Below the pieces are notes generated by a model. It had not been told where the DNA came from, did not search any database, and saw only the letters and a list, made by a program, of their open reading frames with translations. The translations under genes and the position numbers were made by a program. Shown in pieces: positions 1 to 60,025 of a stretch of DNA of 64,000 nt (its first letter is position 1; each line of letters begins with the position of its first letter). The DNA comes from Blasia pusilla. Its lineage: Eukaryota. The DNA lies in assembly GCA_050084515.1 (NCBI GenBank), contig CM114271.1, positions 15,996,001 through 16,060,000 on the forward strand. Direction: 5' to 3'.

Positions 1-438
1 ACCCACTCTCCTAATGAGAGGTTTGGGTTACACATACAGAAGGCAACCAAGACCATAGCTCCGTTGCCTCATGCCAAGAGGTTCAACAAAGAGAGAATGA
101 GTTCTCAAGCTCTTTCTCCTTGAGGTATACTGCTCCCCTCTTCCAAGTTCTCTCCATGATAATCTATGCTCTCAAGTCACCTCCTTGGCTCTTGACCTAA
201 TGTAGGAGGTCAAGGGCCATTTACCAAAAATATAAATTTAACCATATACTCAAAATGATACTTACATAACATAGTAAGTTCTTAAATATGGCTCCAAATG
301 AGCCCAAACGAAGGGAAATCATGCTCTCTCACATTTCTTGAGCCCTCAGCAGGTCATCCTCAACCTCTTGAGCTTGTCCTCCACTACTCACAAAGGCGTC
401 ATACTAGATCTCACCAATCTATCCTAAAAGATGTGACA
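1..438 (-). repeat. Terminal repeat A2 of copy 1 (truncated by window edge)
   Basis: Collinear with 25370-25805 (roughly 80-85% identity by eye); match ends exactly at GTGACA. Confidence 0.9.
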
Positions 439-440
439 GT

Positions 441-568
441 TGTCATGCGCATACACATCGCTACACAATATATATCGTTATCATTGAACACACACACAAA
501 CACGCACGATCCCATGCTTACTCATGGCATCCAAATAACAAGACAAGAAGTACCAAAATATCTCCAAT
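441..568 (-). repeat. Repeat B1 of copy 1, preceded by a polypurine tract (568-579)
   Basis: Reverse complement matches 27650-27776 and 28297-28418; AGAGGGGCGA lies immediately upstream on the element strand. Confidence 0.85.
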
Positions 569-749
569 CGCCCCTCTAGTTGGTGGTTAGGTCCCTCTAA
601 CTCCAGATAGCCATCTATCCCTACCTACCGTTGACATACATCTCTCGGACGCTAAGAGCAAAAAGGTCGGGTCCTCATGTGGCCCCATCGTTAGTCGCCT
701 TCTTGTCATCCATGTCACAGACACAAGTTGGAATCTAGAACTACATACT

Positions 750-1169: not shown

Positions 1170-1460
1170 CACTAGAAGAAAAGCATGACTTTTATGACTA
1201 CAACTAAAATGACTGATGTTTTTCATGACTCAAACGTATGACTAGAATGTCCCTTAGTCATATGGTAGTCATATCTTTCCATCAAATACTAACATCTTAG
1301 TCATATAAAATATGACTGATGTTTTTCATGACTCAAACGTATGACTAGAATGTCCCTTAGTCATATCTTTCCATCAAATACTAACATCTTATTCATATAA
1401 AAATATGACTAAGTCATTGTAGAATTTTGGGATATGGCTCCATCATGTCCCAAAATGACT
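1170..1460. repeat. CACTA left TIR and subterminal ATGACT/AGTCAT repeats, including an about 100-bp tandem duplication
   Basis: Dense ATGACT/AGTCAT motifs in both orientations; 1209-1311 repeated at 1312-1410. Confidence 0.85.
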
Positions 1461-1928
1461 TGCTAAGAATTGAGTTATTTTAAAACTCTAACACGTAATA
1501 TTTCAGTCTTATGAGAATATGAGTGAGTGATTGAATAACTTTGGATTTCTCCTTAGTTATATCATGAAATATCTCACAAAATGTTGAGTCATTTTGTATC
1601 AAATGAGTTATATTTATGAATTAATCATAAATAAAAATGCTATAAATTTTATTTATGATTAATAATTAAAAAATTCAATAGAATAATGATTTCAGCTTTA
1701 CTTTTATTTTGAACCAAATGAAAAAAAATACTCCCACCTTGATGGAATTAAACATCATTCACAAAAAAAAATTTCGCTTGTAGGTGGGTTGGGAAAAAGT
1801 CCTATAAACACTTACCTTATGAAGAGCGATGGATCTTAGCTATAGGAGGCAAGAGTAGTGTCACTCACAAGAAGGCTTTCCTAACGAAGACGATACCTAA
1901 GGAAGAGAATAAGCTTGCGGCAAATGAC

Positions 1929-2291
1929 GAGGGCGGGATCGAGCTCATATGTAGAGTCGAAGGCAAAGAGAGCAAACGCGGGAGAGATAGCTAGTGTGAG
2001 TGAGCCTAAGGCAGAGTGAGAGTCAACGCACAAGAGCTTGATTGAGTGAGCCCGAGGAGGAGAAAGACCTAATGCGAGAGTGCACAAGTTACCTTGAGGC
2101 ATAGAGAGCTAACAACAAGGGCGAGATCAAGCTCATGTGTAGAGCCAAAGGCAAAGAGAGCAAACGCGGGAGAGCTAGCTAGCGTGAGTGAGAGCTAAAG
2201 CATCAGAGGGAGAGCTAACTCATGAGAGCATGATCGAGTGAGCCCGAGGAGGAGAGAGTGCGCAAGTTAGCTCGAGGCATAGAGAGAGCTA
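1929..2291 (+). repeat. Purine-rich tandem duplication, about 185-bp unit
   Basis: GGCAAAGAGAGCAAACGCGGGAGAG and GAGTGAGCCCGAGGAGGAGA each occur twice about 185-190 bp apart. Confidence 0.8.
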
Positions 2292-2610
2292 TTTCTCGAG
2301 GAAGACATAGAATGTTGAGGCAGATCCGGAGAAAGAATGCTAAGGTAAAGAGATATGGTTCCGAATGTGGAGCACACTGCAACATTACATTGCAGAGTAC
2401 CGAGATCAAGGATCTAGGGTTGAGCTCTAGCCCTGGCTGTGGGTTTTTGGCATGACAAATGCGCTTACGGGTTAGTTTCTCTTACTTACGAAATTGGATT
2501 GAGAGTTTTTGCTCAAGTACATTCAATAGATTTCCTTCATGAATAGGAGCTATTCGTCTATTGAAATCCCCGTCTCTATCACATATATTTTTCGACGGTG
2601 ACCACTCATT

Positions 2611-3560
2611 TTACAGAATGATTATCGTGGGTAAATCCAGTGGAGTAGAAACTGGCTTTTCCTCAGCCATTCTATACCTTGTCAGCATCGCATCAATGTA
2701 GTGAGTCTGACTGAGTCTAATCCATCCTTCTGCTCTGTTCCTCTCAACTTTAGTTCCAAGAATGAACTTCACTGGGCCTATGATAGTCATAGCAAAGACT
2801 GAGCAAAGATTGTCCTTTGCTTCCTGGATTTCTTTCTTACTTTTGCCTAGCAACAGGAGGTCATCTACATACACTGCAATAAACAATGTACCATTTTTGT
2901 AGTAAACACTCAAATCTGCATGAGCTCTACAAAACCCCTGTTCCCTAAGGTAAGAGTCCAACTTTTCATACCAGGCTCTTGGAGCCTGTTTAAGACCATA
3001 CAATGCCTTCTTCAACAAACATGCATTGCCCCTATGTCCACCATACCCATCTGGAACATCCATGTAGATGGTTTCCTTCAGTCTCCATTGAAAAGCATTC
3101 TCCACATCTAATTGCTCCACCTCCCAATCTTCTTCTTGACTTGAGCTAAAAGCAACCTTATGGAACAGGACCGGTACTCTACAGGAGCAAAAGTCTCTGT
3201 ATAATCAACTTCAGCTTGCTGATTGAAACCCTTTGCTACAAGACAAGCTTTGTACTTTACCACTTCATTGTTAGCTCCTCTCTCGATCTTGAAAACCCAT
3301 TTGCAACCAATGGATCTCCTATCTTTGGGTAGATCAGTCCACTCCCATGTGCCATTCTTTGCAAGAGACTTTTCTCTTGATCAATGGCAATCTCCCACTT
3401 GCTCCAATCAGGTCTACTCATAGCCTTTGTGCAAGTGTTTTCAGTTCATCTTCTCCATCCATAGTAAGACAAGCTTCTTCATCCATTGAGGAGTGAGCAC
3501 ATTTCTCATGATGAACTCCCAACTTTGTCAATAGGTGTTCTCGTTCTTCCGGATCTCCTT
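2611..3560 (-). pseudogene. Ty1/Copia reverse transcriptase fragment inside the CACTA
   Basis: NGTWEWTDLP...CKWVFKI, QLDVENAF, LKKALYGLKQAPRAWY, YVDDLLL; frameshifted; no LTRs seen. Confidence 0.9.
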
Positions 3561-3850
3561 GGCAATGTCTCGCCACTTCTTGGTTTGTGCATCTTGAGGT
3601 ACTGGTATTTTGACAAGCTGAAAGTTGGATTCCTGATGATTCTCCTCAGTTTGGACAACTTTCTGCCTTCTCCTGACATATAGATAGTTTCATATAAATT
3701 CCACGTACTACAACACGTGAGTTCATTGTCCCACATCAACTCCAAAATGCAACAACACCGCTTCCCATGGAGTCGACCACTTCTGGAAGTGCGGATTCAT
3801 CATAGGCGAGACAATGACAGAATCCAAAGGGATCCAACACACTCACTGAC

Positions 3851-4900
3851 CTTGACTTTGAATGAGTTCAATACCCGTGCCTGCGAACTCTGTTGAAGTG
3901 GGATATTGAACGGGAGGGTCTAACATAGAACCTTCATCCTCGTCAGGCATGAGAGGGCGCACCCTGCAGAACACTCGTACATTGCCCTTGAGCTCCTGCG
4001 TATTCCAATCCAGCAAAGTTATCGTACTCCCTTCTCTTCATCAGTGATCCAAACCCGGTATCGGTGGCAGACACATGACTTATAAACAAACAGGATGTCA
4101 CAATATAGGACATCTTCATCAATGACCATGTACTGGATAGTCATGACAAAATGGCATTCAAAAAATAGTAGGAGACTCCAACGTGGAACAGAGGTTACCA
4201 AAATGGTGTTATGGAGCTTCCTTCTTACAAGCTCCCCATCATGAATTTTGATCTCAACTTCACAAAGTCTCTCCTGAACTTCTTCCAGTTTACCTTTGTA
4301 TTCGTCCCCTTTACATTCGTTCTCTGCTATTCTTTCCTCTGTCATCTGGTAAAATCGCAATGTACGGGGCTTGGTGAAGAAGGACCCAGATAAAGTTTCC
4401 AAATCTTCAGAAACCTACACCCTTCCGTGCAAGTGAAGCTTGATTGGTAAAAGTCTACTGGACATGTGCGTACCTTCAACTTTTGGTGCGCAAAGTCCAG
4501 TTTCTGTCGCAAGGCCTTCATTTGCTCACTTTGTGACGTGTATCCTTCCTAGAAAGCATCAATTCAACTGGAAAATCAACCTCATGGATCATTTTCTTGT
4601 TCCATTCATGCGATCATGGTTAGAGACCAGCCAGGTTTGGAGTAAAGCTCGACCACAGGAAAACTTGAAGGACGACGGTCAATTTCTACCAGATCTCATG
4701 TCCAACGTTAACTCACAGAATTCACAATGTAAGCGAATACTACCTCTAGGGCAACAGCTTTGCTGCTCATCAATTCAAGCTCAACAGCAAACTTCCCGGT
4801 GCATTCTTTGTACCGCATGTTCTCCTCGATGAGAGCCTGCACTTGACTGGCCCTTTGTTCTTTATAAATCGTCTGTTATTTGCACCTCCCCACGTATCCT
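3851..4900 (-). pseudogene. Captured genomic fragment of a kinesin-14 (ATK1/KIFC1-like) gene, 4 exons with introns
   Basis: Exons about 4744-4900, 4474-4548, 4199-4345, 3851-3995 with GT-AG borders; spliced product ...GELVRRKLHNTIL|ELKGNVRVFCRVRPLMPD... is the C-terminal-motor kinesin neck. Confidence 0.85.
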
Positions 4901-5169
4901 CTCGGCTTCTTCCCTCAACTCTTTATTCTGTTTCAGTCTCTCCTGCATTATGGCATGCGCATTTCGAGGCATAGAGTTCCTTCAGCTAGAAGATTCTCAA
5001 GCTACAATTTAAGATCTCCAATTGCTTCTTTGAATTCCTTGGTGAGCACCCCAAATCCTTTCATTACATTACACGTCAGTCTGGAAAATGAAATATAGAC
5101 GAATGGCAGGCAGATTTATCACTTCAATACCTTGTTTGCATCAAGCTGATCATGGAGGTCAATCAAATA

Positions 5170-5730
5170 TGTGTAATTGCATTACTGTGTAATTGCATTT
5201 GTTGCTGTTGATATTTTTGCTACTGCTGATGTTGTTGTTGCTCCTGCTGCAACAACTACTGATCTTGTTGCTGAAATAAAAGTTTTTGATTCTACTGTTG
5301 TAGCTGCTCCTATTGTTGTTACATCTGCTATTACTGTTGCATCCGCTACTGCTGTCATTGATAATGCTTTTGGTTGTACAATCTACTGCTGCTCCTGCAG
5401 CAATTTGTGTTCATGTTGCTGAAGTAAAAGTTGTTGTTGCTACTGTTGTAACTGCTCCTGCTATTGTTGCATCATCTGCTGTTGTAATTGATGTTGCTTT
5501 GGTTTTAAAATCTTTTGCTGCAACAATTACTATTCCTGCTGCTGAAGTAAAAGTTGTTGTTGGAGTTGTTATAGTTAGTCGTGTTGTTGTTGCATCTGTT
5601 GTTGCTGTAATCGATGTTGCTTTTGTTGTATAACCTTTTGCTACGTCTAATGCTATTGTAAGTACTGCTAATGTTGTGTTAATTATTGTTTTTTTTGTAG
5701 CTGTTGATGATATTGCTGTGTTTGTTGAGA
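5170..5730. repeat. Low-complexity GTT/GCT-rich degenerate tandem repeat
   Basis: GCTGAA(A/G)TAAAAGTT recurs near 5270, 5418 and 5541; Val/Ala/Thr-rich ORFs in several frames. Confidence 0.7.
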
Positions 5731-5958
5731 AGAGCCAACAAAAGAGCCCTCCCATTTATGAGATTGAATACTTTGCAAATTTTGACAAAGCTTTATGATT
5801 TTGAGCCATGCAGGATTCAGTACTACTTGTACTCGAAGCTGGTTGTTGCTTCATGTTGTGAGCGCCATCGATCACCTGTGTGTAGCTCTCCCTGTGTGCA
5901 ACTCTCCCCGATACTTTTCCAAGGTATTTTTCAGAGGACCACTACTTTACCTTGAAGG

Positions 5959-6546
5959 ATGAATCCAGTTGACCAACCACCGCTTGATGTACAAATTGAA
6001 CTTCATGGCAGCCTACGACTACATCAAAGACAACCTTCCTTGGTTCAACGCATCCAAAGTCTACCTACTGAAGTTCAAGTGATGATTTGTTCTTTACACT
6101 CACGTCACTATTGGTATTGGACCTGGCATGAACGAATTGAGAATTGGCGCTTTCATTCAAAAGCACGCCATGTATATGTGACGGTCTCTGATTTCGTGTC
6201 TAGGCAAGAGGATCGATACTCCATCCTTCTTTGGTTGATGATGGGTGTTACAGAGATCATGACCCTTCATATCTATCATGATTCTGATGGCATGGTCGTC
6301 GGTGAGGACTCTTCACCCATATTTAGGAAGGCGTTGGCTCTTATCCATGCAGCTATTGCATATTCTGGGAAACCATGTATAGTCAGATTTGAGTTCTCTT
6401 CTGTGAGAATGGAGAGACTTCCTGGTGAGAGAATATGCAGCACAACTGGTTATCGTAGGGAGAACTTGAGTGGTCTTCTTTGCCCATGTTGTGCTCATTT
6501 TTGTTGTGGCCCTATTTGGTGGCGTTCAAGGAGAGCAACTTGGTAG
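5959..6546 (+). CDS. Hypothetical 195-aa ORF within the CACTA, weak F-box-like N-terminal motif
   Basis: ATG-initiated ORF; IQSLPTEVQVMICS resembles the F-box LP.E...I pattern; nothing else recognisable. Confidence 0.3.
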   Translation: MNPVDQPPLDVQIELHGSLRLHQRQPSLVQRIQSLPTEVQVMICSLHSRHYWYWTWHERIENWRFHSKARHVYVTVSDFVSRQEDRYSILLWLMMGVTEIMTLHIYHDSDGMVVGEDSSPIFRKALALIHAAIAYSGKPCIVRFEFSSVRMERLPGERICSTTGYRRENLSGLLCPCCAHFCCGPIWWRSRRATW

Positions 6547-7662
6547 GTTTGGAACTTTCAAACTCTATAACTTTTTGAGTGAGATTGACTTCATTTTGTT
6601 AAAAAGGCAGAAAAGGATGGTTTTAAGGAACTCATGTATTACAAGTGATAGAGAAACTATTTTCACCAATGACTATAGATTGGAATTTTGGATATATATA
6701 CCAGATTTTGAGATGAAGTAAGAGGGAGCTAGTAGAGAAAGTGGAGCTCAAAGCCTATTTTGGAACACTGACTTTTGATTTAAACTGGTTTATAATGACC
6801 ATCAACTTCGGATAGAAAGCCATTGTCCAGTTGATGTAAATACGGATGATTTCAATTTTTGCATGAATGGATAGGCCAAGTGGTTTGATTTTCTATATCT
6901 TACCATACCATCAACATAGAATGCAATATCACGCAAAATTTACCACAAAATGCAGTATTCTGGATGACAAAAAAATCAGGGCAGCAAAGTGTTTGTGGAG
7001 TTGTGATGTGGCTAAAAATTGAACCGGGTTTTGTTATGTAGCGATGAGGGCTAATCCTCTGACTCTGTGGTTTTCTTTTAATGCATAATTTTCCCAAAAA
7101 AAACTTAAAGCTACAATGTTTAAATGAAGAAATGTAGAAGAAATAACCATACCTTTCAAACAGACAACCTAAAGATAAGGCATTTGACATGGAAATGGTC
7201 TGAAATTCTGAAATCATAGATAAATCATCACTTGAAGTGCACATAGACTTAGGGAAAATTAAATCTTATACCACCTTATAGTATTCAAACTATATTGATG
7301 TATTTATATCTGATCATTCACGTGATACAATCTCTATGCATATACTTAAGACATCTGCATGTGTCATGTTGTGAAGGTGTGTGTCAAAGTTCATTTGTGG
7401 ATTGTAGAGGATCAAATTATCACTATCAGAGAAGGATATCAACGAGAGGTTTATATTTCCCGGAGGGGTATACTTGATATACTCAAGGTACGTAGATAAT
7501 TACGGATTCTCCCTTCATTTATATTGAAATCAACATATTTTGCTCCAATAGATATCCACCATACTGAAACATTTTCACTTCCATGTTTATAATGTTAGGA
7601 ACAATGGGATGCCATAATTTCCTTCATTCATTTACCTCTGTTCTTATTAACTTGACGTAGGG

Positions 7663-10600
7663 GTGATGATACCACAAAGGACTGCTCACGTCCGGTTGGA
7701 TTTGACACATCCTCATAGAATCCAAGCACACGACTATAAGTTGTGGCAAAGGGAGTGCGATAAGTCTCGCAAACTAGGGAGGAAGAGGGCAAGATGCCCT
7801 TGTACAGAGTGCAAGGGCGGAACTACCTTGGGACTAGCAAAGGTAGAAGACCATCTAAGGAAAAATGGTCGATCTCATCTTTGTCGAGTTCCAAAAAGTA
7901 GGGAGGAGTGGGACTCTTCAGATGAGGAGTTGCTCACACAACAAGAGGTCAATGACAAGTAGCAACGTGAGCACATTATGCAATCCTATGTTAGACCTGA
8001 AATCTCGCATCCAGAGAATCCTGATTTGGATGTTGATATTGATGTTCCCCAGATGTTGAATGATATTTTTAGAGAATATGATCATCTCCATGATGAGGAT
8101 ATGGTTGTTGATGAAAGTGGGACAGAGAACGAGAACCTCAATGAAACCAATGATCCAAATATTCCATCAGATTTTCATGAGCTTACCGCAGCATGCAAGC
8201 CACTCTTCCCTGGAGCCAAGACTTCTTTACTTGCATTTGTTATGCTCCTTTTCAATATTGGTACGACCCATGGGGTCCCTAATATTGTAATTGATGAGAT
8301 ATTGAAACTCCTACGTAAGATGGTACTCCCATCTGAAAATCTTGTCCCACCATCATACTATGCAGCAAATAAACTCATTAGTAAACTTGATATGAGCTAC
8401 AACTCTATCCATGCCTGCCCTAAAGGTTGTGTTCTATTTCGAGGGGACTTGGAAGGTGCAGAAATTTTCCCGAAGTGTGGGAATGCTAGGTTCAAGCAAG
8501 CCAGGAAGTCTTTAGTACCAAATAAGGTATTGAGACACTTCCCTTTAATCCCGCGGATCCAGCGTATGTATAGGTGTAGGGCCTTGTCTGAGTTATTGAG
8601 TTGGTCTTCTGAGAACAAAAGTAAGGATGGCATGGTAAGACATGCAGGGGACAGTAAGGCTTGGAATCATATTGATTGTTTGTACCCAGATTTTGCTATA
8701 GAGGGTAGAAATTGTAGGTTTGGTTTAGCACTTGACGGAGTTAATCCATACTCTGATAAGGCAAGCTCATGGTTAGCATGGCCAATCCTATTGGTTAACT
8801 ACAATTTGCCACCTTGGCTTCGAAAAAAAAAGTTTTTTATCATGTTGGCTCTTATCATACCTGGTAAGGAGAGTGTGAATGGAGAGAATATCAATACCTT
8901 CTTGGCCCCCTTCGTAGAGGAGTTTAGGAAGTTGTGGAATGGAATTGAATTCCACGATGTGAAAAAGACCATATGGGTTCAAATTTAGAGCCATGATCTT
9001 ATGGACTATAAGTGATTATCCAGCCTATGGCACAATCTCAGGGCAAAGCCATGGTGGAAAACTTTCATGTACCGTATGTGGACCGTATGTGGATTCAGAT
9101 TTATCCAAACAATGTGGAAAGCCTATATTTGGCGGTCATAGAAGACATCTTCCACTAGACCATGTTTGGAGAGGGCGACCTTATGGCCCTCGATTCAATG
9201 GTGAGAGTGAGTCTAGACCACCACCGCCAAGGATTACATCAGATGAAATTCTGGAATGGGCTGAAGAGAAAAAAATATATGACGATGGAGGTGGTTGAGA
9301 GGATGCTCCTACTGATCCATACAAGAGGACAGGGGTCAAGCGGCAAAGTATACTCTTTGATTTGCCATACTGGAAAGTATCCAAAAAATATCTAATTATT
9401 TTCAAATTTTTGTTGTGATAGGTGATATAATTACTTATCTCTTGTCAACCATTAATATGCATATATTTTTCCTTGACCTCAACGTAGCATCTGCTGATAC
9501 GACACACCCTAGATGTTATGCATGTGGAGAAGAATATATCTGAGAATCTAGTTAAAACTCTATTTGGGATGAAGGATACAATGAAGGTTAGAAGAGATAT
9601 GGAGGCTCGTGGAATTTGACCTCACTTATGGTTACAACCCCATCCAAGTAAAGCAACAGGGTTAGTGAAACCTCAATGTGATTATGTTTTATCACCTCAT
9701 GAAATGTCCATTTTCCTAGCTAGGATTGAATCCACGAAAGTGCCTACAGAATATAGTGCGGAGTTGAAGAAGCACGTGGTTAAAAAGAAATTGGGATCCA
9801 TGAAGTCACATGATTATCATGTGATGATTCACCAAATCCTTCCCTTTGCCCTTCGTGGGCTAATGAAGGATCCAATTCGCTCATCAATCATGCGTTTGAG
9901 TAAGATATTTAGGTTATTGTGTTGTAAAGTGTATGATCGTACATGCTATGAACAACTACAAAAGGATACAGCAATTACCCTTTGCCTATTGGAGATGCAC
10001 TTTCCACCATCATTTTTTGATGTGATGACACATCTTCTTATCCACGTTGTCCAAGAATTGGATATATGTGGGCCTTTAGCTTGCTGATGGATGTATCGAA
10101 TGGAAAGATACATGGGTACTCTGAAAAAATATGTTAGATCTAAAGCTCGCCCAGAGGGATGTATGGCGGAGGGGTATATCAAAGATGAGGCATTGGGATT
10201 TGTGAGTGAGTATATGAAAAGATTTGAGGATGTGAGGACACGAATATGGGATGACGGCCCGAATCGAAGGGTCGGGGGGAGGAGTTGGAAGGTGCAGGAC
10301 GTGAAATCATATTATCCCGAGAAATGACTATCTTGGCACACCACTATGTCCTACACAATATGGAGTGTATGGTAATGTGGCGCAGGTAAATTTCAACTAT
10401 ATTCAATGAATTCAATGTATGGAAATCCTGAACCTGATCTTCTGAACCTTACATGTTTGTTTAAGCTTCCACGTCACCTTATTCTTTGGTGATGTTCTTT
10501 CTTTCTACCAGGAAATTTGAGGCTGAGAATGCATCAGTTTCTTTTGAAGAGTGGATTCAACCAGCTATCCTTCGAGATGCTTGGGAAAAAGATGGGAAGG

Positions 10601-11260
10601 AGGATGAAGAGCTATTGGCTTTGTCAATTCCTCCACAAGCAAAAGTTCTCTCATACAAGTCTATGAAGGCTTATGGCAATCACTATAGGGTAGAGGGAGA
10701 GGGTGGATATAATGCATACTCCACTTACGATAGTGGAATTGGAGCAATATTTTTGGATGAGGGTAATGATGATCGAATTGTGCTTATTCATATGTGGGAG
10801 TTCTGGTCGATGTAATTGCGCTTGATACGGGATTGTTGATCAACCTGTAATATTAATGAGAGGGAGGTGGGTGAGGGCAGATTGGAAATCACGGATGCCA
10901 TCCATGAAGCGAGACCGTGAAGGCTTCCTACTTGTAAACCTTAGATCTTGTGAACCTATCAACCATCAACCCTTTGTGTTCCCATCTCAAGTGGAACAAG
11001 TCTTTTTTGGAGATACGAACAAAAGAAGTGGATGGAAGGTTGTTTTGAGAAAAGAAGCTAGATCCCGTCGAGTAATTTTGGATATCTATGATGGTGGAAA
11101 CCTAGATGAAGGATATTTTGTTGCAATTGACCAGATTGAAATGCCATCAGGAAGAGTGCCACTAGCTAACACTCTAGGTGCTGTAGAGCTCACTGCTGAA
11201 GAGGTGGTGACTGCAAATAGAGATTGTAATAATGTCCCTATCATCCAAGTGTCCACATAA
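7663..11260 (+). pseudogene. CACTA transposase (TnpD-like), with introns, frameshifts and stops
   Basis: CPCTECK...HLRKNG associated domain; IHACPKGCVLF, GLALDGVNPY, YNLPPW, TISDYPAYG (Transposase_21); DVMHVEKN; MKSHDYHV, FPPSFFDVMTHL, WMYRMER; QPFVFPSQVEQVFF. Confidence 0.92.
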
Positions 11261-11473
11261 GTGCTTTATGAAGAAGAGAGCTCCAAAGAGGATGTAGAGA
11301 TTTAATTTTCCTTTTGTTCAAATATTAGAGATACATGCGGTTTGCTTTGAGAAGTGAGTCAAAAGTCATGGTTCTAGTTTAACCTTTGTGTGAGATGTTT
11401 GCATTTGTCAATCATGCATGATAACTCTCCTGATTCAACTCCTTGACGACATTTTTCAACAGAACCTTTCATA

Positions 11474-14400
11474 ATGGAGGGCCATTCATATGCCCTCCAA
11501 GGTAGTACAATAGGTGGTAAGGGGGGAACTCGATCAGACCTTGAGGCTATTCTTACTTCTGAAGGCCTACGTGATGCAAGTGGGGAACTTCCTGATGGGC
11601 TAAATCATCAGGCTTGGGCCTTGAAGTGGAGACGTCATAAGAACAAGAGTGAGATATGTGTGTATCGTTTCGTGGTGTATGATGATCTTATTGATGAGAG
11701 ATGGGGGCCCTTGCCGAGTGATGTAGAGAATGTCCCTAGAGAGGATAATATCAAGGGTGATGAAAGAATTGTTGCTGATGGTGAATTGAAATGTGCAAAT
11801 GCACATGAACAAGAGGATAAGATAGGGCAGACAAGGGAACTTGACCAAGGCCAGGAAAATAATTACGAGATGCAAAATAGGATTTCCACTGCATCTATAG
11901 TCAGAGAGAGTAGTAATACGTCAAGTGTGTGTAGACCCGATTCTATAGGGCACCTTTCAGATCTGAGTGCAACCATGGAGAGGGCTGATCTCAGCAAAAA
12001 TGTGGTGGCTTATGATTTGAGTACAGAGGGGCAAGAAAAATCTAAGGGTTTTGAAAGAGAGGCAATGACTTATGAGAGAGAAACATCACCTCTGCACATT
12101 ATAATGGATCCAGATGGTCAAGATAATGACAACTTAAGACATCCTAATACGCCCACAAACTCTTCAAACTTGGAGAACTCTGATATTGGTGATGGATTTG
12201 AGAGTCCAGACCTACTGGATAAGGACCTTCATGCTCTACTCCCGATTCAACAAGAACGGGCACGGAAGATAAGGGAAAACAAAAGAAGAGCAGAAAAAAT
12301 TCTCGGTGCTATTCCCTCAGAGTAAGTAGATCACTACCTTGCATGAGATGTGAATTGCAATAATATTGCATGGTTTTCCATTCCTTCTTGCATGCAGTTT
12401 CCTTATTCGTAGAAAATGAGACTTGCATGATCTTACATAGATGATTGATGATGAAACCATTGTTTGGAAAGGCTGAGACCAGCAAAGGCATCCAAGAAAG
12501 CCTCATGTTGTAGAGAAATAGTGGCAGAGGTAGTGAAAAAGCGACGAAGTTTGAGATTGACATCAAAGGTCTTGGAGAGCTTACCAGGTCCTTCAATGCT
12601 TGAAAGCCTTGAGGATAATAAAATGAAAGATCCAGATTATATGCCAACTGAAGATTCAGAATACCAAAATGATGAGGAAGATGTACCTGATCCTCCATTC
12701 GTGAATAAGGATACTGGGCCGACATTCCATCCGATCCAAGTCAAAAGGGTAACTACAATGATATGTTATATACCATCTTCAGTAAGATTTTGTGTGGGAT
12801 ACATAATTCTTCCAATCTCTGTGTTTATTTATTATAATACACTAACTTTTATTTATCTTTCATATGCTCAGGGTATTGGAGGGAGAGAATTCCACGAATC
12901 TCATGCCAATTATAAGGCACATGATTCAGGCCAAAGTGGGAGATCAGAAATGGGTTGGCAATATCCCCCATGGTCAGAGAGTGGTAGCCAATACTGGGGT
13001 GGACCAATGGGTGCAAGGTGGTACACTCATGAGCGCGAGCCGTCGATGTTGAATCATGGCCCACACGGCTCTTATGGCTTGCCCCTAAACCCTTCCCCCC
13101 GACCACAATGGGGACAACTCCTACAGCTGAACACATGACCGCTCAAGGCCAATGGCCTCGAGGCATGTATTGGTCACAACCTAGAGTTGTAGAACGTCCC
13201 TGGTAGGCAATACCCAGCCATCTCTACCATCTAGATCTCACGCCGAATGGGGTCCTCATACACAAACTTTTACCCCGATGGGGAGTCAACAACAATGGGG
13301 ACCCATTCAACTTGGTTCTTCAGGCCAACCATGGGCAACGCCAAGTGTAACCTTCTTTCCACATTGTGTATTTATGATCAAATTCTCTATTTTTAAGGAA
13401 TGATAACTCTTTAACTCTTGATCTTCTCATGATGACTCGAAAAGTGGCCATTATCCTTTCCTGCTTCGGTGTGTTTTTTCAGATTGTGAAATCCTGATTT
13501 CTTGTCTATAGTGTTGATGAAGGATGTAAGAGTGCTATCTCCATATGTGGACAGGATGGAGCACCATGCCCTCCGCCCCCTTATCCAACTGCAGGAGAAG
13601 GTTTTGACTCAACATTTTCTGATGGGCCATCGAGATTTGTTGGGACGAGTGTACATTCGCATCAAAGTGACAGTCAGTCTTTTATGGCCCCTAGTCTCTC
13701 CAAACCCAGAAATAAAAGTGGGGGTATGTCCACATGTAGTCGCTTTTGAGGCATGGTCTAAATGTTGACCAATAATGTTGGGTACAAGTGGTTAGTGACC
13801 TGGTCTTTTATTCCCTACATTTTGTAACATGTGCATGTCTAAATTGATTTTCTTGCGCCTTTCATTTCTTCAGGTGATAGGGCAAGTGCGAGGAGAAGTA
13901 GGACCAAGAGAGATTTGTGGAACCGTGATGTGGCTCAACGCAAGGACCAAAACCTACTACCTAGATGTGAATTGTTGCCTACTGGGGTTCCAAAGACGAA
14001 GGTGCCCGATTATGAGCCATGGTTGAATGACCTAAAGGTATGGACCCTACGCTATCTCGACTTATCATGTGTCGAGATGAGTAGGCAAGAGGCTATTAAT
14101 GTGGCAACAGTTCGCAAGCACATTGAGAGTGTGTACATATGTTGGGGCACCATCTTTATGTTTGGACTTTTTGAAGAAGAAATGTGCACAATTATTAAAA
14201 ATAGAACGGTCCACAATGAAAGCATATTGGGTGGCCAATGGGGCTCATGTTGATGTCCCTTGCCACCCTGATGCTAAGGAAGATGCAGGGGGCCGTTTGG
14301 TAGATTATTGGCTTTGTGAAGAGGGTATGTTGAAGGCCCAAAAGATGGTGAACGCAAGATCAAAGGTTATGACTTTAAATCACAGCGGACGGGGAGGTTT

Positions 14401-16724
14401 AGAGGGGTTTTCTGTAAGTTATCCTTAGCTTTCATTTCTTTTATATTTATGATTTCTGCACTTTGGTGTTCAGATTGTTAATGTTTGTCAATGTTAGTGA
14501 TTCTAATTGTGTTGTTGGGTTTCTCCATGTATAGGGCAGAGGTGGATCAACCACACAAAACAATGTAGGTGTTACTGACAATAGACCAATTCCACAACAA
14601 GAGAGTCTTGTAAGTTAGCTATAATTATGTGTGAATTATTTCCCGTGTATTGTGAGGTTTGTAAATACATTGTAAATTTTTTCACCACCTGATATATTCA
14701 CTTTCATTGGTTTTTATGTAATCTTACCAATAGGAAGGAGGTGCGACAGTACCCTTGACCACGAAAAGAACTCAAGAGCAAACACACCCAATGAGTGATA
14801 GCCTTTACACTGGAGGTTCCCGAGTGAGTATAATGCTACCGAGTTAAATATGACTTATGATAGTGTTTGATTTATCCTCATACAAAGACTGATATAGCCT
14901 TGAGTTGGAGCTATATATTTGCAAGGAACATACTAACTATATGGATATCATTTTATTTTTCAGATGAGTGTAGAGTCAAGCATAACCACTCAACTTCTGA
15001 AGGTAGAGAAGAAATGGAATGCAGATATGGGTGTTATCAAGGGTGATCTTGAGCAAAAATTGGAGAGGAACCAACTCCTCTTGGAGAAGAAGATGTCAAT
15101 CAACCAATCCCTGATTGAGGAGAAGTTGGAAAAAAACCAGAAAGAACAAAAAGAGGCCTTTTCCATGCTTGTTGATATGATCAACAAGCTTTCAGAGAAG
15201 AGGAGACCTAAAGTGAACACATGTGGTCCTTCTAAGACTCATATTATGAGTCAGCAAGAAGGTAAGAGTCCTCTCTCAAGTTCGTTTCTTTTCAAGCATT
15301 GGTGCAATTATTAGAAATTGATAATTTTTCCTTTGAAATTACATGGCAGATCTTGCTCGTGTCAAGGATGGCCCTTCGAAGATTGGAGTAGATGTTTTGG
15401 GTGCTCATAAGGAGGTATCAAGGGACTTGGATGGGCAAACTGAAGGGATTCAAGCTGGTAAGTATCGAGTTTAGAAAATCTTGATTTGGTTTATAAAAAT
15501 TATATCCTTTGTAAGTGCAGATTCTTTTAGTTTCTTATAAATATTGTTGTTGTGTGATAGTAAAAAAGGCAAACGAATCAAAACCCTGCTCGCCTTCTGA
15601 AAATCCTAAAGCAACAACTCTCTCAGGTTTGGTTTTCTTCCCCTCCGTTCTTTTGTTATCCCTACCCTTTCTATAGTTTCAAAGAGATCTTCAATGCATT
15701 ATGGTTTAAGATAATGTACAAAAATTGAATGTGAAGTTCCAGTTTTGTGTATCGTTGTTTGCTTTGACAACATACCTAAAACAAAAACCCTCTCAGATTT
15801 CCTTTTCTTCCCCTCTCTACTTTTGTTATCCTTACACTTACTATAGTTTCAAAGAGATCTTCATTTTTTTCCAGCAAGAGAATATGTACAGCAGGTAAAT
15901 ATCAATTTCCAGCTTGGTATATCCTTACACTTACTATAGATTCAAAGAGATCTTCAATTTTTTTACAGCAAGAGATTATGTACAACAAGTAAGTATGTAC
16001 AACAAGTAAATGTCAAGCTCGACTTTTGGTATATTTCCCTCTCTGATATTATAGCTATATATCAGTAGCCTTCTATGGATGTACATTCAACATAACAAAA
16101 TTACTTTTCCTTTATTTTACTATCCTTTTGTACTATGCAGGTTTCATTGCTGGGGAGAAAGAGTCTTCTCCAAACAAAAAGAGACGTGTTACAAGAGTGC
16201 ATTCTGACGTCATTCAAGCTGCAAGTAGTGAACATGACAGCGATGTAAAGTCAGGAAGCAACAAAAAATACACTGGGAAGGTATGCACGTGGACTTGGAA
16301 GAAAAACTTTCTTGCTTGGCATGATAATCAGAACTTTATTCAAGTGCTACAATATTTCAATTGAAATAATTGTAACTAATAGTGTGTTGTGTTACACTTG
16401 ATGTATTTGTCTCCTCCAAAGACTCATTCGGGGATCTTGGGTTTGGAGATTCGTGTGGGCGATGAGGTTCAACTCCTAAAGCCCAAGCTTAGCAAGACAA
16501 TTTTGGGCACTGGTGTTGTAATTGGCATGAGTGGACAACATAAATTTCATGGGAGTGATATCCCATCGGGCATGGTACGGGTGGTTCTGAAGATTGTCCA
16601 TCTTGCATTCTTGGATCATAAGTTATGGCAGCCAAATGAGGCTGATATGCCGCCCCAATACACTTTGGGTGATGCTCTTGGAGGTTCAGTACTTTGGCCT
16701 GAAGTAAATTTGAAGAAATCATAG
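11474..16724 (+). pseudogene. CACTA second gene (TnpA/Ptta-like), multi-exon, decayed
   Basis: RLVDYW...NARSK...HSGRGG (Ptta-like) near 14300; C-terminal FHGSDIP...VRVV...LGDALGGSVLWP (Tnp1/En/Spm-like); many small GT-AG exons. Confidence 0.75.
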
Positions 16725-17129
16725 GCTAATATTAGACGTTCATGCCTACATGTAGACAATACTTACTTACAGTAGTGCATGTTTTTTTGACTCGTTCTCT
16801 ATGAAATCTCAAACTCTCCACAGAGTTCACTGTTGATTACTTGTAGTAATCTTTATGACCACTGTCTTTGTTGCTGAATTTACTTTTCTTCAATATAAGA
16901 GTACACAATTTTATTCTAGTTCTTGCATTGGACAGTTAGTAGTTTCCAATCACATTTTTGTTTTTACACTGCATTCTCAGTTGATGAATGGAGTGTCTGA
17001 ACTAAAATCTCCACCTTTCCCTTGATTTGGTTAGTTTATCGATGCCTTGTGAGAATCAATGCATGAATGGATAGGCTACATTCTGCAAAGAGAACCTTAG
17101 CCTTCTATCATGAGACCTACTTCTAATTC

Positions 17130-17887
17130 CCATATCTTGAAGTCATTTAAATATCAGATGAATCATATTAGTCATAAATCATTCAGTCATATAATGTAGC
17201 CAAACTCTAGTCATAAAAGTCAAATATGTAGGTACCTAGTCATATTCATCTATCATGCACTCATATTAATGAATCGTGGAGTCATTCAGACCTGTCATGC
17301 AAAATATCAATCATATAGAAGTTAGATTCTAGTCATAAGAAAAAATGTATTAAAAAAATATGGAGTCATTTAAAACAATCACATATTTAAGTTCCTAGTC
17401 ATATTCACAAAGCATGGAGTCATACAAAGTAGTCAGACTTTAGTCATACACAAAGACCATGTCATTTATTGAGTCGTATATAACCATTTAAAGTCATTTA
17501 TAAGAAACAAAATAATCAATATGACTTAGTCATATTTGAAAGCTTAGTCATAGAATTGAATGTGAAGTCATTTTTATGAAATTCTCCGAACAATATTACT
17601 ACAGTTGACTCATACAATGTGACATGTGTCATGATTTAAGTAGTCGTACTTGATGACTTGCCACGTCATATGCTGATATGGTCGTCATATTATATGACTT
17701 TAGTGACGTGTCAATCATTTAAATGAATGACTAGGTCTCTCATCCTAAAATGACTCGAGTCATGGTATGGTAGATGACTAGGCTTTTATGACTCCATGAG
17801 TCATCAGTCATTTCCAGTCATTTTAAGGCATATATGACTTGAGGAAGTCATATGAGCCAGTCATAAAACTATGGAATTGTTCTAGTG
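17130..17887. repeat. CACTA right subterminal repeats and TIR
   Basis: Dense AGTCAT/ATGACT motifs ending in TTCTAGTG. Confidence 0.85.
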
Positions 17888-24221: not shown

Positions 24222-25285
24222 AGAAGGAGGTCAAGGTGGTCCTGCACGTGGAGACCCTCAAAACCTCGCGCCACTCCGCCTAAACCCTCTAGAGCTACTC
24301 TTTGGTCCACCACCTTGCCTATCAAAGTCCCAAAAGGACACTGTGATGATCCTTGTGCCCCCTCACACGATCATTCTCCACCTTGCGAGTAATCACGCAA
24401 TCACTCAATCTAACATGCAGCACTCAAGCTACACTCTCTGACCAAGACGCGTGCTGTGTGGCACAAGCGGCGTGGTGCGGAAAGTCAACTGATCTACAGT
24501 CTCATCGATAAACCATCCTCAACTCTGGATATCCCACACATGTCTATGTCCCCTCAATCCATACGTCATCAATGCTCTTAGCATCACCACAAAACCCAAT
24601 GTCCCAAATAACTTCCCAATATCCAAAATTCTCTCACACGTGTAGGGTAAGAGACCATAATGGATAACCTAACAATAATTTCGATGTCGCTCATCAAAAA
24701 TTGCAAATCTCGACCCCAACTTGGTCGTGAAGACAACTACTCCAATCAGCAAGTCGTACTCCTCTCGTATAGACGGTGCTCAAACTTTGCAAGATTGACC
24801 TTAACTTTTTGCTTGCAACTATAAATTGTGCACTGTTTATTGTACAACGTGCACAGCTTCACGATCTACAAAGGCATCAAAAACTATTTCAAATAAAAAA
24901 TTCCAGTAAAAATTGATGTGGATTTTTGTAAAGCCCAACGTCTCTTTCTCCTACACAAAATTTGGCAGCGCTTCCGTGCTTATTTCTCCCAACAAAAATG
25001 TAAAACCTATGAAAACACAAATCAACATGCTACATGGTGCTCCTCAAAGCACTGGCATGGGGAAATTTTCTCCCATACTCAATCCGTATTAAAAATTGGG
25101 GAGCGCTTATGCGGGCCACTCTTCCACATGAAAAATCGGCAAAGGAAATATAAAAAATGAGGAGCTCCGACTCTGGTGAGCACTCCCATGAACTCCTAAA
25201 TAGGGAATACAATCCCCAACCTACAAAACCAGCAAGTGACTAGCGAGCTCCCCCATGAAGCTCTCTCACTCATCTCATTTCTCTC

Positions 25286-25805
25286 TTTGTAAATCAAGGG
25301 GAAATCTCTCTCAACACCATAGCTCTCAAATGTGTGCACTCTCACATGTCTCTCTCAATGTCAAACCAAACCCACTCTCCTAATGAGAGGCTTAGGTCAC
25401 ACACAAAAGGCAAGCAAGACCATAACTCTGCCGCCTCATGCCAAGAGGTTCATCAAAGAGAGAATGACATCTCAAGCTCTCTCTCCTTGAGGTATACTCC
25501 TCCCTTCTCCCAAGCTCTCTCCATGATAACCTATGCTCCCAAGTCACCTCCTTAACTCTTGACCTAATGTAGGAGGTCAAGAGCCACTTATCATAAATAG
25601 AAATTCAACCATATGCTCAAAATGGTACTACCCTAAAATAGTAAGTTCCTCAATCTGGCTCTAAATGAGCCAAAACGAAGGGGAAACCTGCTCTCTCAAG
25701 TTTCCCGGGGCCTCAGAAGGTCATCCTCGACCTCCTGAGATTGTCGCCCACTACTCGCAAAGGCACCCTACTAGATCTCTCTGATCTATCCTATAAGACG
25801 TGACA
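25286..25805 (-). repeat. 5' terminal repeat A1 of copy 1 (no B segment attached)
   Basis: Matches 1-438 and the reverse complement of 27779-28296; similarity stops where B2 begins in copy 2. Confidence 0.88.
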
Positions 25806-42880: not shown

Positions 42881-46980
<4,100 letters not shown>

Positions 46981-55607: not shown

Positions 55608-55684
55608 CCGCCCCCCTAGCTGGCAGTTGGATCCCCCCAACTCCAGATAGAAAATATCACATCTCTCTGACATGACCTACTACC

Positions 55685-58640: not shown

Positions 58641-58867
58641 TCTCCTCCTATCAACTTGAGACCTATCGCAGGCTCCCAAGTCTCCATTGTGACCTCACTC
58701 GGAGAGGACGCAACTTCCGGCTTTGGTTGCTATGTAGCAACCCTAGCCACCTCATATGACCACTCCACTCGACCTCCTACACCATGCTCCACATCCAAAA
58801 AATGAACATGTGCTACTCTAGCCTTCGCACTCTCTGCTCGAACGACGCCCCAGAAGTCCATGGGTGC

Positions 58868-59992: not shown

Positions 59993-60025
59993 TCCAAGAG
60001 CCCGATCGCCATGTGACTCTCGCGG

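What the first reader, a model, noticed from the sequence alone, without database searches (positions are those of the whole stretch)
434..445. Near-palindromic CA-nn-TG end-to-end junction encoded inside the element
Seen: the B1|A2 border reads TGACA-AC-TGTCA in copy 1 (element strand), CGACA-GT-TGTCA in copy 2 (27772-27783) and a degenerate CGATA-AAT-TATCA in copy 3 (55474-55462). This is the element's right end abutted to its left end across about 2 bp. Inference: nicking after CA on both strands would give the 2-nt 5' overhangs that integrase processing normally produces. The junction could therefore be the integrase substrate of a circular or over-long cDNA, analogous to the abutted-end junctions of IS3/IS30-type DDE elements.
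Basis: partly seen in the sequence, partly recalled or inferred. Interest (0 to 1): 0.8.

Follow-up and report, generated by a model that had tools for sequence, protein, structure and literature searches.

The report
Stored end-to-end junction in retrotransposon
The 12-base near-palindrome is the place inside a liverwort-type jumping gene where copies of its right end and its left end are stored side by side, 2 bases apart, an odd repeat layout that suggests the element's integrase cuts a circular or over-long DNA copy rather than ordinary blunt ends.

Summary
Positions 434-445 are the internal B1|A2 border of a Ty3/gypsy-type retrotransposon (GAG-PR-C5 DNMT-RT-RNase H-DDE integrase-PHD). Its repeats are split: A1 ... 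B1-A2-B2. A starts TGTCA and B ends TGACA, so abutting B to A across 2 bp gives the palindrome. As a bare motif it is not significant (7 matches against 3.7 expected). Its position is what counts: it lies exactly on the repeat border in window copies 1 and 2, in degenerate form in copy 3, in RNA of expressed relatives (CGACA-GT-TGTCAC), and as TGACA-GC-TGTCA in three algal relatives. A conserved G-rich polypurine tract lies directly 5' of B1, and B2 starts where B1 starts. Reverse transcription should therefore make a B-spacer-A repeat, and A2|B2 looks like a U5|U3 end join. Integrated copies are then permuted relative to linear cDNA. The repeat layout is already in print for KnitGypsy-Dnmt3 of Klebsormidium, in a figure legend without a mechanism. 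I file these as new members of a known but unexplored kind.

The parts
434..445 (-). Copy 1 B1|A2 junction. On the element strand: TGACA (445->441, end of B1), AC spacer (440->439), TGTCA (438->434, start of A2).
1..438 (-). Copy 1 A2. It runs off the left edge of the window, so B2 of this copy is not in the window.
   Evidence: 85.4% identical to A1 over 438 nt
441..566 (-). Copy 1 B1
   Evidence: B-profile hit, E 4e-32
567..579 (-). Copy 1 polypurine-like tract CTAGAGGGGCGAT, directly 5' of B1
25284..25805 (-). Copy 1 A1 (left terminal repeat). It starts TGTCAC at 25805, abuts the interrupted RNase H region of copy 2, and is not followed by a B.
1171..17887 (.). About 16.7 kb of unrelated nested transposons (Copia RVT_2, CACTA tnp2/DUF4218/DUF4216) that split the integrase region of copy 1
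27638..27650 (+). Copy 2 polypurine-like tract CTAAGGGGGCGAT
27651..27776 (+). Copy 2 B1 (ends CGACA)
27777..27778 (+). Copy 2 spacer GT
27779..28295 (+). Copy 2 A2 (starts TGTCAC)
   Evidence: 80.9% identical to A1 of copy 1 over 529 nt
28296..28418 (+). Copy 2 B2, the right terminus. It ends GCGCATGACA and is followed by unrelated DNA.
   Evidence: 86.4% identical to B1
25806..27650 (+). Copy 2 internal remnant (part of RNase H, integrase, PHD, 3' UTR), cut off at its 5' side by the insertion of copy 1
55608..55619 (-). Copy 3 polypurine-like tract CTAGGGGGGCGG
55470..55607 (-). Copy 3 B1 (ends CGATA)
55462..55474 (-). Copy 3 degenerate junction CGATA-AAT-TATCA
54981..55466 (-). Copy 3 A2
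   Evidence: lies between B1 and B2; sense RNA reads of relatives cover it
54844..54980 (-). Copy 3 B2, the right terminus. It ends GCGCACGACA; RNA depth is zero beyond it.
   Evidence: 95.6% identical to B1
55685..62662 (-). Copy 3 gag-pol in essentially one frame with several stops: GAG with two zinc knuckles, protease, C5 DNMT (58868-60025), RT, RNase H, integrase (56378-57244), PHD finger (55685-56086). A1 of this copy lies beyond the window's right edge.

Best explanation
The site is the internal B1|A2 border of a split-direct-repeat retrotransposon (A1 - gag/pol - polypurine tract - B1 - 2 bp - A2 - B2). The element's enzymes are of the Ty3/gypsy type, including a DDE integrase.

Shown:
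- The integrated element begins 5'-TGTCA (start of A) and ends TGACA-3' (end of B), the TG...CA short inverted ends typical of integrase substrates.
- The junction is an internal copy of the right end set next to the left end with 2 bp between them.
- It is transcribed.
- It recurs at the same border in distant relatives.

Inferred:
- The outer ends cannot both be carried in a transcript that starts inside A1, so the junction is the heritable master copy of both ends.
- A G-rich polypurine tract sits directly 5' of B1 and B2 starts at the same base as B1. Plus-strand DNA therefore most likely starts at B1.
- The repeat made by ordinary reverse transcription is then B-spacer-A, and the A2|B2 border is a U5|U3-type end-to-end join.
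- An integrated copy (A ... B-sp-A-B) is thus a circular permutation of the linear cDNA (B-sp-A ... B-sp-A).
- The simplest route is that the integrase cuts after CA on both strands of one B-sp-A junction, with a 2-nt stagger, in a 2-LTR-circle-like or over-length cDNA, and inserts the resulting A...B molecule.

My odds: about 0.9 that the site is the stored two-end junction of a split-repeat family; about 0.45 that the junction itself is cut by the integrase in unintegrated DNA.
For: Architecture.
- B1/B2 and A1/A2 pairs have exact borders, and unrelated DNA lies outside A1 and B2.
- There is no sixth B in the window.

Enzymes.
- RVT_1, RT_RNaseH, Integrase_H2C2, rve, PHD and DNA_methylase are hit; no tyrosine recombinase is hit.
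- D, D-35-E is readable in the copy 3 translation.

Conservation of the junction.
- Expressed relatives in organism A read ...GCGCACGACA-GT-TGTCACG... in 78, 123 and 88 RNA reads of runs X21, X22 and X23.
- TGACA-GC-TGTCA is exact in L009 (twice), L010 and L014, each with a G-run 16-58 nt upstream.
- L014 and L009 carry RT-RH-IN-PHD but gave no DNMT hit.
- Between subfamilies, identity is 63-71% in the last 45 nt of B and 66-71% around the G-run, against 37-40% in the rest of B and A.

Polypurine tract.
- A G-run lies directly 5' of B1 in window copies 1-3 and in L040, L054, L047/48, L049 and L056. It is weaker in L065/70 and L068/69/71 and deleted in L052.
- B2 starts at the same base as B1 in copy 2, copy 3, L049 and L056.
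- 28 DNA contigs of run X1 show the same A-end|B-start join.
- No purine tract precedes A2.

Precedent.
- Retroviral integrases cleave the palindromic LTR-LTR junction of 2-LTR circles (abstracts of PMC1905944 and PMC1180852).
Against: - No extrachromosomal DNA, cDNA ends or cleavage products were seen.
- No target-site duplication could be checked. No copy has both flanks in the window, and the metagenome copies are decayed.
- No primer-binding site was recognised after A1. The sequence there is purine-rich with no TGG, and no tRNA gene was available for comparison. The 'U5 end' reading of the end of A is therefore unsupported.
- Sense RNA reads cross the A2|B2 border at roughly half the neighbouring depth (rows 54976 and 54981). 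That fits a DIRS-like transcript running into B2 at least as well as read-through of an LTR-type transcript.
- A circle has two identical junctions. Cutting the other one predicts A-B-A-int-B copies, and none were seen here, though few copies could be examined.
- Only one 5' end (copy 1) is in the window.
- The spacer letters vary (AC, GT, GC), and copy 3 has 3 nt.
- In L014 the junction joins two full units in tandem, not A-int-B-A-B.
Confidence: 0.55

Rival explanations
1. DIRS-like template only. The transcript runs from inside A1 into B2 and lacks both extremities. The B1|A2 junction, like the internal complementary region of DIRS-1, serves only as the template or splint from which the missing 5' part of A and 3' part of B are restored. 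The finished linear A...B cDNA is then integrated by ordinary end processing, and the junction is never cut.
For: - The repeat layout is that of PAT/Ngaro elements (passages of PMC4157794).
- In DIRS-1 the internal junction is essential for retrotransposition (abstract and passages of PMC7192593).
- RNA reads cross both B1|A2 and A2|B2.
- No primer-binding site was found after A1.
Against: - With the only polypurine tract 5' of B1, every priming scheme I could write gives a left end that is over-long by B plus the spacer, so a cut at the junction is still needed. This is inference.
- The coincidence of the start of B2 with the polypurine tract/B1 border is left unexplained.
- DIRS-type junctions share their spacer with the target flanks (passage of PMC7192593). 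Here the flanks (CT before A1 of copy 1; TA and TC after B2 of copies 2 and 3) do not match the spacers.
Confidence: 0.28
2. By-product without its own function. B1-A2-B2 comes from recombination or from tandem insertion of a second, internally deleted unit next to the first, and the palindrome is merely two ends that happen to lie together.
For: - L014 shows two units head-to-tail across the same junction.
- Within-element repeat identity in copies 1 and 2 (85-86%) is hardly above between-copy identity (81-84%).
Against: - The same B1-2bp-A2-B2 order recurs in 3 of 3 window copies of two subfamilies and in L049 and L056. It is also reported for Klebsormidium (legend of Fig. 4c).
- B1 and B2 of copy 3 are 95.6% identical.
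- No homologous sequences flank the internal region that could delete it and leave A-B.
Confidence: 0.07
3. RNA-level signal. The self-complementary 12-mer acts in the genomic RNA, as a dimerisation or packaging contact between two RNAs or as part of a minus-strand primer site just 3' of B1, rather than as a DNA cleavage site.
For: - The junction is present in sense RNA.
- The first ~45 nt of A are 47-53% identical between subfamilies against 37-40% for the rest of A.
- A 2-nt gap between ...CA and the next functional block is the usual U5-to-primer-site spacing (recalled, not tested).
Against: - No TGG or tRNA-like complementarity at the start of A.
- The spacer makes the palindrome imperfect in the liverwort-type copies (GT or AC).
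- The palindrome is fully explained by TG...CA inverted ends.
Confidence: 0.1

Closest known systems
KnitGypsy-Dnmt3 of Klebsormidium nitens (de Mendoza et al. 2018, PMC5890265; section 9 and figure legends read, figures not held)
   Same: A Gypsy-type pol with a C5 DNA methyltransferase inside the polyprotein. The legend of Fig. [quoted passage not shown] 1e gives that arrangement as A-coding region-B-A-B.
   Different: - The host here is liverwort-like: best protein hits are Calypogeia and Marchantia at 63-68% identity.
- The DNMT lies upstream of RT here. The Klebsormidium domain order could not be seen.
- In the parts I read, the paper gives no junction sequence, polypurine tract position or mechanism. 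Its PDF supplements could not be read.
PAT-like / Ngaro / DIRS tyrosine-recombinase retrotransposons
   Same: Split direct repeats A1-B1-A2-B2, with the two termini stored adjacent to each other internally. In DIRS-1 the internal junction is required for transposition.
   Different: - No tyrosine recombinase; a DDE integrase instead.
- TG...CA ends.
- The methyltransferase is a C5 DNMT, not Dam-like.
- Junction spacer of 2 bp that is not shared with the flanks.
Palindromic U5|U3 junction of retroviral 2-LTR circles, cleaved by PFV and HIV-1 integrase (PMC1180852 and PMC1905944, abstracts read)
   Same: Two integrase ends abutted into a CA...TG palindrome that the cognate integrase can cut internally to give processed ends.
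   Different: - In retroviruses the junction exists only in circles formed after reverse transcription. Here it is encoded in every integrated copy.
- If the G-run is the polypurine tract, the junction lies inside the reverse-transcribed repeat, while the U5|U3-type join is the other border (A2|B2).
- Spacer of 2 bp rather than 4 bp (the retroviral value is recalled).
IS3/IS30/IS256-type circle junctions of bacterial DDE transposons (recalled, no call)
   Same: The right and left inverted ends abutted across a few bp form the transposase substrate.
   Different: DNA-only elements. Their junction is formed transiently by the transposase and is not stored in the integrated copy. No relatedness is claimed.
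Canonical Ty3/gypsy LTR retrotransposons
   Same: RT-RNase H-integrase order, zinc-knuckle GAG, aspartic protease motif, a polypurine-like tract and TG...CA termini.
   Different: No pair of identical terminal LTRs. The 5' repeat lacks B, and an extra B precedes the 3' repeat. The polypurine tract is separated from the TG terminus by B (126-138 bp here, ~56 bp in L010 and L014).

Membership tests
Ty3/gypsy (Metaviridae) LTR retrotransposon | pol with RT, RNase H and a DDE integrase (H2C2 zinc finger plus rve core), in that order | tested here: met
   Pfam RVT_1, RT_RNaseH(_2), Integrase_H2C2 and rve on copies 1 and 3; D, D-35-E readable
Ty3/gypsy (Metaviridae) LTR retrotransposon | Two identical direct long terminal repeats bounding the element | tested here: not met
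   A1 lacks B, and the 3' end is B1-A2-B2
Ty3/gypsy (Metaviridae) LTR retrotransposon | tRNA primer-binding site just 3' of the 5' repeat | tested here: inconclusive
   No TGG-led site after A1 of copy 1. No host tRNA genes were available in the window or in 67 of the 80 loci scanned.
Ty3/gypsy (Metaviridae) LTR retrotransposon | Polypurine tract immediately 5' of the 3' repeat | tested here: inconclusive
   A conserved G-run exists, but it abuts B1, not the TG-led A2
Ty3/gypsy (Metaviridae) LTR retrotransposon | 4-6 bp target-site duplication | not testable with these tools
   No copy has both flanks in the window; no genome is held
DIRS order (DIRS1 / PAT / Ngaro) | Split direct repeats A1-B1-A2-B2 or inverted repeats plus an internal complementary region | tested here: met
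DIRS order (DIRS1 / PAT / Ngaro) | Tyrosine recombinase instead of a DDE integrase | tested here: not met
   No Phage_integrase hit among 60 of the 63 window ORFs of at least 120 aa, or among the long ORFs of L014 and L009; rve is present
Gypsy-DNMT3 (KnitGypsy-Dnmt3-like) | C5 DNMT domain inside a Gypsy polyprotein | tested here: met
   PF00145 hit on 58868-60025(-); motifs FGG, PCQ and ENV readable. Assignment to the Dnmt3 clade was not tested.
Gypsy-DNMT3 (KnitGypsy-Dnmt3-like) | DIRS-like A-coding-B-A-B repeats | tested here: met
Integrase-cleavable end-to-end junction (2-LTR-circle type) | The junction is cleaved by the cognate integrase after CA on both strands | not testable with these tools
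   Needs biochemistry or sequencing of extrachromosomal DNA

The most novel reading that the evidence does not exclude
A whole clade of green-lineage Gypsy elements with a PHD-tailed DDE integrase, with or without a captured DNMT, integrates not from the blunt ends of linear cDNA but by a restriction-like double cut at a palindromic CA-NN-TG site that lies inside its reverse-transcribed repeat. The substrate is a 2-LTR circle or an over-length cDNA, so every integrated copy is a circular permutation of the cDNA. This would be a natural, obligate version of the old 'circle with two tandem LTRs is the precursor' model. It would also be an independent, integrase-based route to the split-repeat layout otherwise known only from tyrosine-recombinase elements.
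Probability: 0.4. Interest if true: 0.85.

Novelty: new member of a known kind. Interest (0 to 1): 0.6.

Why it matters
LTR retrotransposons and retroviruses are taught to integrate from linear cDNA ends, with 2-LTR circles as dead ends. Split direct repeats are taught as a hallmark of tyrosine-recombinase elements. This is a DDE-integrase family that carries its two ends abutted inside each copy, and its polypurine tract is placed so that the linear cDNA cannot have the integrated ends. If the junction is really cut, circles or over-length cDNAs are obligate integration precursors in a natural system.

The family is expressed in the source organism. It has close relatives in Marchantia polymorpha, which I recall to be a transformable model plant, so the question can be tested at the bench. 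The layout also matters for annotation: LTR-finding programs that expect two identical LTRs will probably mis-call or miss these elements (inference, not tested).

Tried and rejected
- Own genome: none is held.
- RNA holders: no RNA holder is listed among the indexed runs. The raw RNA runs were laid instead.
- Strict scan for split repeats: an automatic scan of the 45 of 80 metagenome loci that are 5 kb or longer, with strict criteria, found none. Looser self-comparison found B1-A2-B2 only in L049 and L056, plus an A|B border in L060. The L035/L036 pair turned out to be AT-rich low-complexity sequence.
- Target-site duplications: not obtainable from any locus.
- tRNA genes for a primer-binding-site test: 0 in the window and 0 in the 67 of 80 loci scanned.
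- Tf1-like self-priming: an 11-nt inverted repeat (TTCTCTCTTTG inside A, CAAAGAGAGAA at the end of A1) is seen in copy 1 only, in GA/CT-rich sequence. It was not pursued and is not counted as evidence.
- One-mismatch motif hits in L062 (inside the protease coding region) and L031 (3.7 kb past pol) were rejected as chance.
- L022's 5.6-kb exact direct duplication is not a unit-length tandem of the element.
- Symmetric variants (TGATA..TATCA in copy 3 and in one X1 contig) are not counted as compensatory change. C>T and G>A dominate all differences, and both arms present the same TGACA context on opposite strands.
- Literature: six of the eight searches bore on this layout. Terms were split direct repeat(s) with integrase or Gypsy or DDE; KnitGypsy; cytosine methyltransferase with PHD, integrase and LTR; PHD finger with integrase, gypsy and algae; REM1. 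They gave no description of the junction or of a mechanism for integrase-type split-repeat elements beyond the 2018 legend.
- The REM1 paper (PMC1291216) is not held. Gypsy-7a_cRei of Chlamydomonas has 'LTR subparts', a left LTR 8 bp shorter than the right one, and a PHD finger (legend of Fig. 6 of PMC9940879). I could not see the figure, so its relation is open.
- Supplements of PMC5890265: only an xlsx file is listed and I did not open it. The PDFs are unreadable here and may hold element sequences.

Full report
**What is at the coordinates.**
Window 434-445 reads TGACAGTTGTCA. The element there lies on the minus strand, so on its own strand the site is TGACA-AC-TGTCA.

**Chance.**
As a bare motif the site is not remarkable. 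TGACANNTGTCA with up to one mismatch occurs 7 times in the window against 3.68 expected, and 10 of 100 shuffles reach 7. Its meaning comes from where it sits.

**The element.**
Pfam scans of 60 of the 63 window ORFs of at least 120 aa, together with a read-through translation of 64000->55400, show one retroelement family on three loci. Its parts, in order, are:
- GAG with two CCHC knuckles;
- an aspartic protease motif;
- a C5 DNA methyltransferase (PF00145; FGG, PCQ and ENV motifs);
- RT (RVT_1) and RNase H;
- an integrase with an H2C2 finger and an rve core (D, D-35-E readable);
- a C-terminal PHD finger.

No tyrosine recombinase is hit. The best protein relatives are from the liverworts Calypogeia fissa and Marchantia polymorpha (63-68% identity over the DNMT ORF) and from Sphagnum (45%). 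More distant ones (34-37%) lie on unnamed JGI metagenome contigs. The rest of the window is nested plant transposons (Copia, CACTA, Helitron pieces).

**The three copies.**
Self-comparison gives the following.
- Copy 1 lies on the minus strand from 25805 to beyond position 1. About 16.7 kb of foreign transposons (1171-17887) split its integrase region.
- Copy 2 lies on the plus strand. Its 5' part was cut off by the insertion of copy 1 into its RNase H region. What remains is 25806-28418.
- Copy 3 lies on the minus strand from beyond 64000 to 54844. It belongs to a second subfamily, about 75% identical in the coding part.

**The repeat layout.**
- In copy 2, the 126 bp that precede the site (B1, 27651-27776) recur after a 517-bp block (A2, 27779-28295) as B2 (28296-28418; 86.4% identity). 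B2 ends GCGCATGACA and then unrelated DNA follows.
- In copy 3, B1 (55607->55470) recurs as B2 (54980->54844; 95.6%). B2 ends GCGCACGACA and then unrelated DNA follows.
- In copy 1, A2 (438->1) recurs as A1 (25805->25284; 85.4%). A1 begins TGTCAC exactly at the break in copy 2.
- A1 is followed by a 1.1-kb leader and gag, not by B. A profile of the five B copies finds nothing else in the window at E<=1.

So the layout is A1 - internal - B1 - 2 bp - A2 - B2. The integrated element starts TGTCA and ends TGACA, and the site in question is the right end set next to the left end.

**Is it a family feature?**
Four kinds of evidence say yes.

1. RNA. Raw RNA reads of three runs of the same species label were laid on 54500-58200. 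Nearly all reads over the coding part have the first mate on the + strand. In most stranded libraries the first mate reads the strand opposite to the RNA, so this indicates sense RNA of the family.
   - Reads that match only the conserved last 37 nt of B continue into a different A start. They give ...GCGCACGACA-GT-TGTCACGTCCTTTAGG... in 78, 123 and 88 reads.
   - A degenerate variant (CGA-AAAC-TATCAC) appears in 72 and 30 reads.
   - Two DNA-contig variants of run X1 read ...AAAA-GT-TGTCAC and ...ATGATA-GT-TATCAC.
2. Moss-associated metagenome contigs of the same family. L049 and L056 have B1 (89 bp), A2 (~290 bp) and B2 (88-91% identity between B1 and B2), and L060 has an A|B border. Their junctions are decayed and read ambiguously.
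3. Algal relatives. Three GC-rich contigs carry the exact 12-mer TGACA-GC-TGTCA downstream of pol: L009 (twice), L010 and L014.
   - L010 and L014 are about 41% identical to the JGI proteins.
   - L014 and L009 show RT-RH-IN-PHD by Pfam and gave no DNMT hit.
   - Each site has a G-run 16-58 nt upstream.
   - In L014 and L009 the sequence after the 12-mer recurs as the left end of the unit: A1 at L014:210 and at L009:8148.
4. Conservation between the two window subfamilies. Identity is highest in the last 45 nt of B (63-71%) and around the G-run (66-71%), intermediate in the first 45 nt of A (47-53%), and 37-40% elsewhere.

The pentamers and the 2-bp spacing therefore persist over a wide span. 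The spacer letters do not (AC, GT, GC; 3 nt in the decayed copy 3).

**The polypurine tract.**
No purine tract precedes A2. A conserved G-run lies directly 5' of B1:
- CTAGAGGGGCG, CTAAGGGGGCG and CTAGGGGGGCG in window copies 1-3;
- ...AGGGGGG in L040, L054, L047/48, L049, L056, L010, L014 and L009;
- weaker in L065/70 and L068/69/71, and deleted in L052.

B2 begins at the same base as B1 in copy 2, copy 3, L049 and L056. In addition, 28 contigs of run X1 show the same A-end|B-start join.

If the G-run is the plus-strand primer, as its place and conservation suggest, several things follow. Plus-strand DNA starts at B1. The repeat produced by ordinary two-jump reverse transcription is B-spacer-A. 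The A2|B2 border is what a U5 end joined to a U3 start would look like. The integrated order A...B-sp-A-B is then a circular permutation of the linear product B-sp-A...B-sp-A.

I could not write a priming scheme with this tract that yields a left end starting exactly at A. Each scheme leaves B plus the spacer in front of it. This is inference, not a result.

Cuts after CA on each strand would be 2 nt apart. Retroviral integrases are known to make such restriction-like cuts at the palindromic LTR-LTR junction (abstracts of PMC1905944 and PMC1180852).

**What speaks against, or is missing.**
- No primer-binding site is recognisable after A1. The sequence there is purine-rich, and no tRNA genes were found in the window or in the 67 of 80 loci scanned.
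- Sense RNA reads cross the A2|B2 border: for example 14 of 14 and 12 of 12 sense reads of X22 at 54976 and 54981, roughly half the neighbouring depth. A DIRS-type transcript that runs into B2 would give this, and so would read-through.
- No target-site duplication could be checked, and no extrachromosomal DNA was seen.
- A circle has two identical junctions, so permuted A-B-A-int-B copies are predicted. None were seen among the few copies available.
- Some copies look like plain A-int-B: L068/69/71, and one X1 contig that skips 54909->55536.
- L014 shows two units in tandem across the junction.
- Only one 5' end is in the window.
- The symmetric TGATA..TATCA variants are better explained by C-to-T decay of the same context on both strands than by compensation. 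C>T and G>A dominate all differences.

**Comparison with what is known.**
- The layout is the split-direct-repeat layout of PAT/Ngaro elements. In DIRS-1 the stored junction is essential. Those elements, however, use a tyrosine recombinase, and their junction spacer is shared with the target flanks. Here the enzyme is a DDE integrase and the flanks do not match the spacer. It works like a split-repeat element but is not a member of the DIRS order.
- It has the Ty3/gypsy enzymes but fails the two-identical-LTRs criterion.
- The same combination is in print once. For KnitGypsy-Dnmt3 of Klebsormidium nitens, the legend of Fig. 4c says the repeat structure is that of a DIRS element while the domains are those of Gypsy. 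A 2026 preprint refers to 'streptophytes (Gypsy-DNMT3)'.
- In the parts I read, neither gives a junction sequence, a polypurine tract position or a mechanism. The searches listed under Tried and rejected found nothing further.
- The finding that DNMT-less algal relatives (L014, L009) share the junction suggests the layout belongs to the PHD-integrase Gypsy clade rather than to the DNMT capture.

**Verdict.**
- The elements are new (liverwort-type) members of a kind that has been noted but never dissected.
- Interest is moderate to high, because the anatomy implies an unusual integration precursor and the family is expressed in the source organism.

Noticed in passing
window 58868-60025 (-), and 55685-56086 (-): The element carries a C5 DNA methyltransferase upstream of RT and a PHD finger after the integrase. 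In the distant JGI relatives P0025-P0029 the DNMT lies between RNase H and integrase. The algal relatives L014 and L009 gave no DNMT hit. The DNMT therefore seems to have moved, or to have been captured more than once, within a PHD-integrase Gypsy clade.
   Followed up: partly
window 25284-25480 (-), copy 1 A1: An 11-nt inverted repeat: TTCTCTCTTTG about 190 nt before the end of A, and CAAAGAGAGAA at the border of A1 and the leader. A TATA-like GTATAC lies about 35 nt upstream of the first. This resembles Tf1-type self-priming, but it is seen in one copy only and in GA/CT-rich sequence.
   Followed up: partly
window 54844-55470: Antisense RNA reads (first mate on -) reach 2-12x over A2 and B2 but about 0-3x over the coding region. 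The repeats are transcribed in both directions.
   Followed up: no
window 1171-17887: About 16.7 kb of nested foreign transposons inside copy 1: Copia RVT_2 at 2611-3204(-), and CACTA Transposase_21, DUF4218 and DUF4216 at 7963-11260(+).
   Followed up: partly
window 17620-17631: A second exact match to the motif (TGACATGTGTCA), 270 bp inside the right edge of the nested insertion. It is not at any A or B border and was taken as chance.
   Followed up: no
window 45448-45813 (-) and 51455-52137 (-): A class I/II aminotransferase fragment and a Helitron helicase-like N-terminal fragment.
   Followed up: no
window 28419-28700: The right end of copy 2 lies in DNA that, by eye, reads like a decayed retrotransposon integrase, so the family inserts into other retroelements.
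   Followed up: no
L014:8836-10912: In this algal contig the junction TGACA-GC-TGTCA joins a complete unit head-to-tail to a second unit that is 80% identical and begins with A and an ORF1-like region. These are tandem units rather than A-int-B-A-B.
   Followed up: partly
L009:15119-15194: Two exact TGACAGCTGTCA sites lie 64 nt apart, the second preceded by its own G-run and only 13 nt. A1 (8148) and A2 (15126) share just 27 nt. Unexplained.
   Followed up: partly
L022:1-12133: A 5577-bp direct duplication at 99.98% identity, offset 6556 bp, within a contig that carries a related gag-pol. Either a recent segmental duplication or an assembly effect.
   Followed up: partly
window junction spacers (439-440, 27777-27778): The spacer is either GT or AC on the element strand, and these are reverse complements of each other. 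This could be two transitions or a flip of the centre of the palindrome.
   Followed up: no
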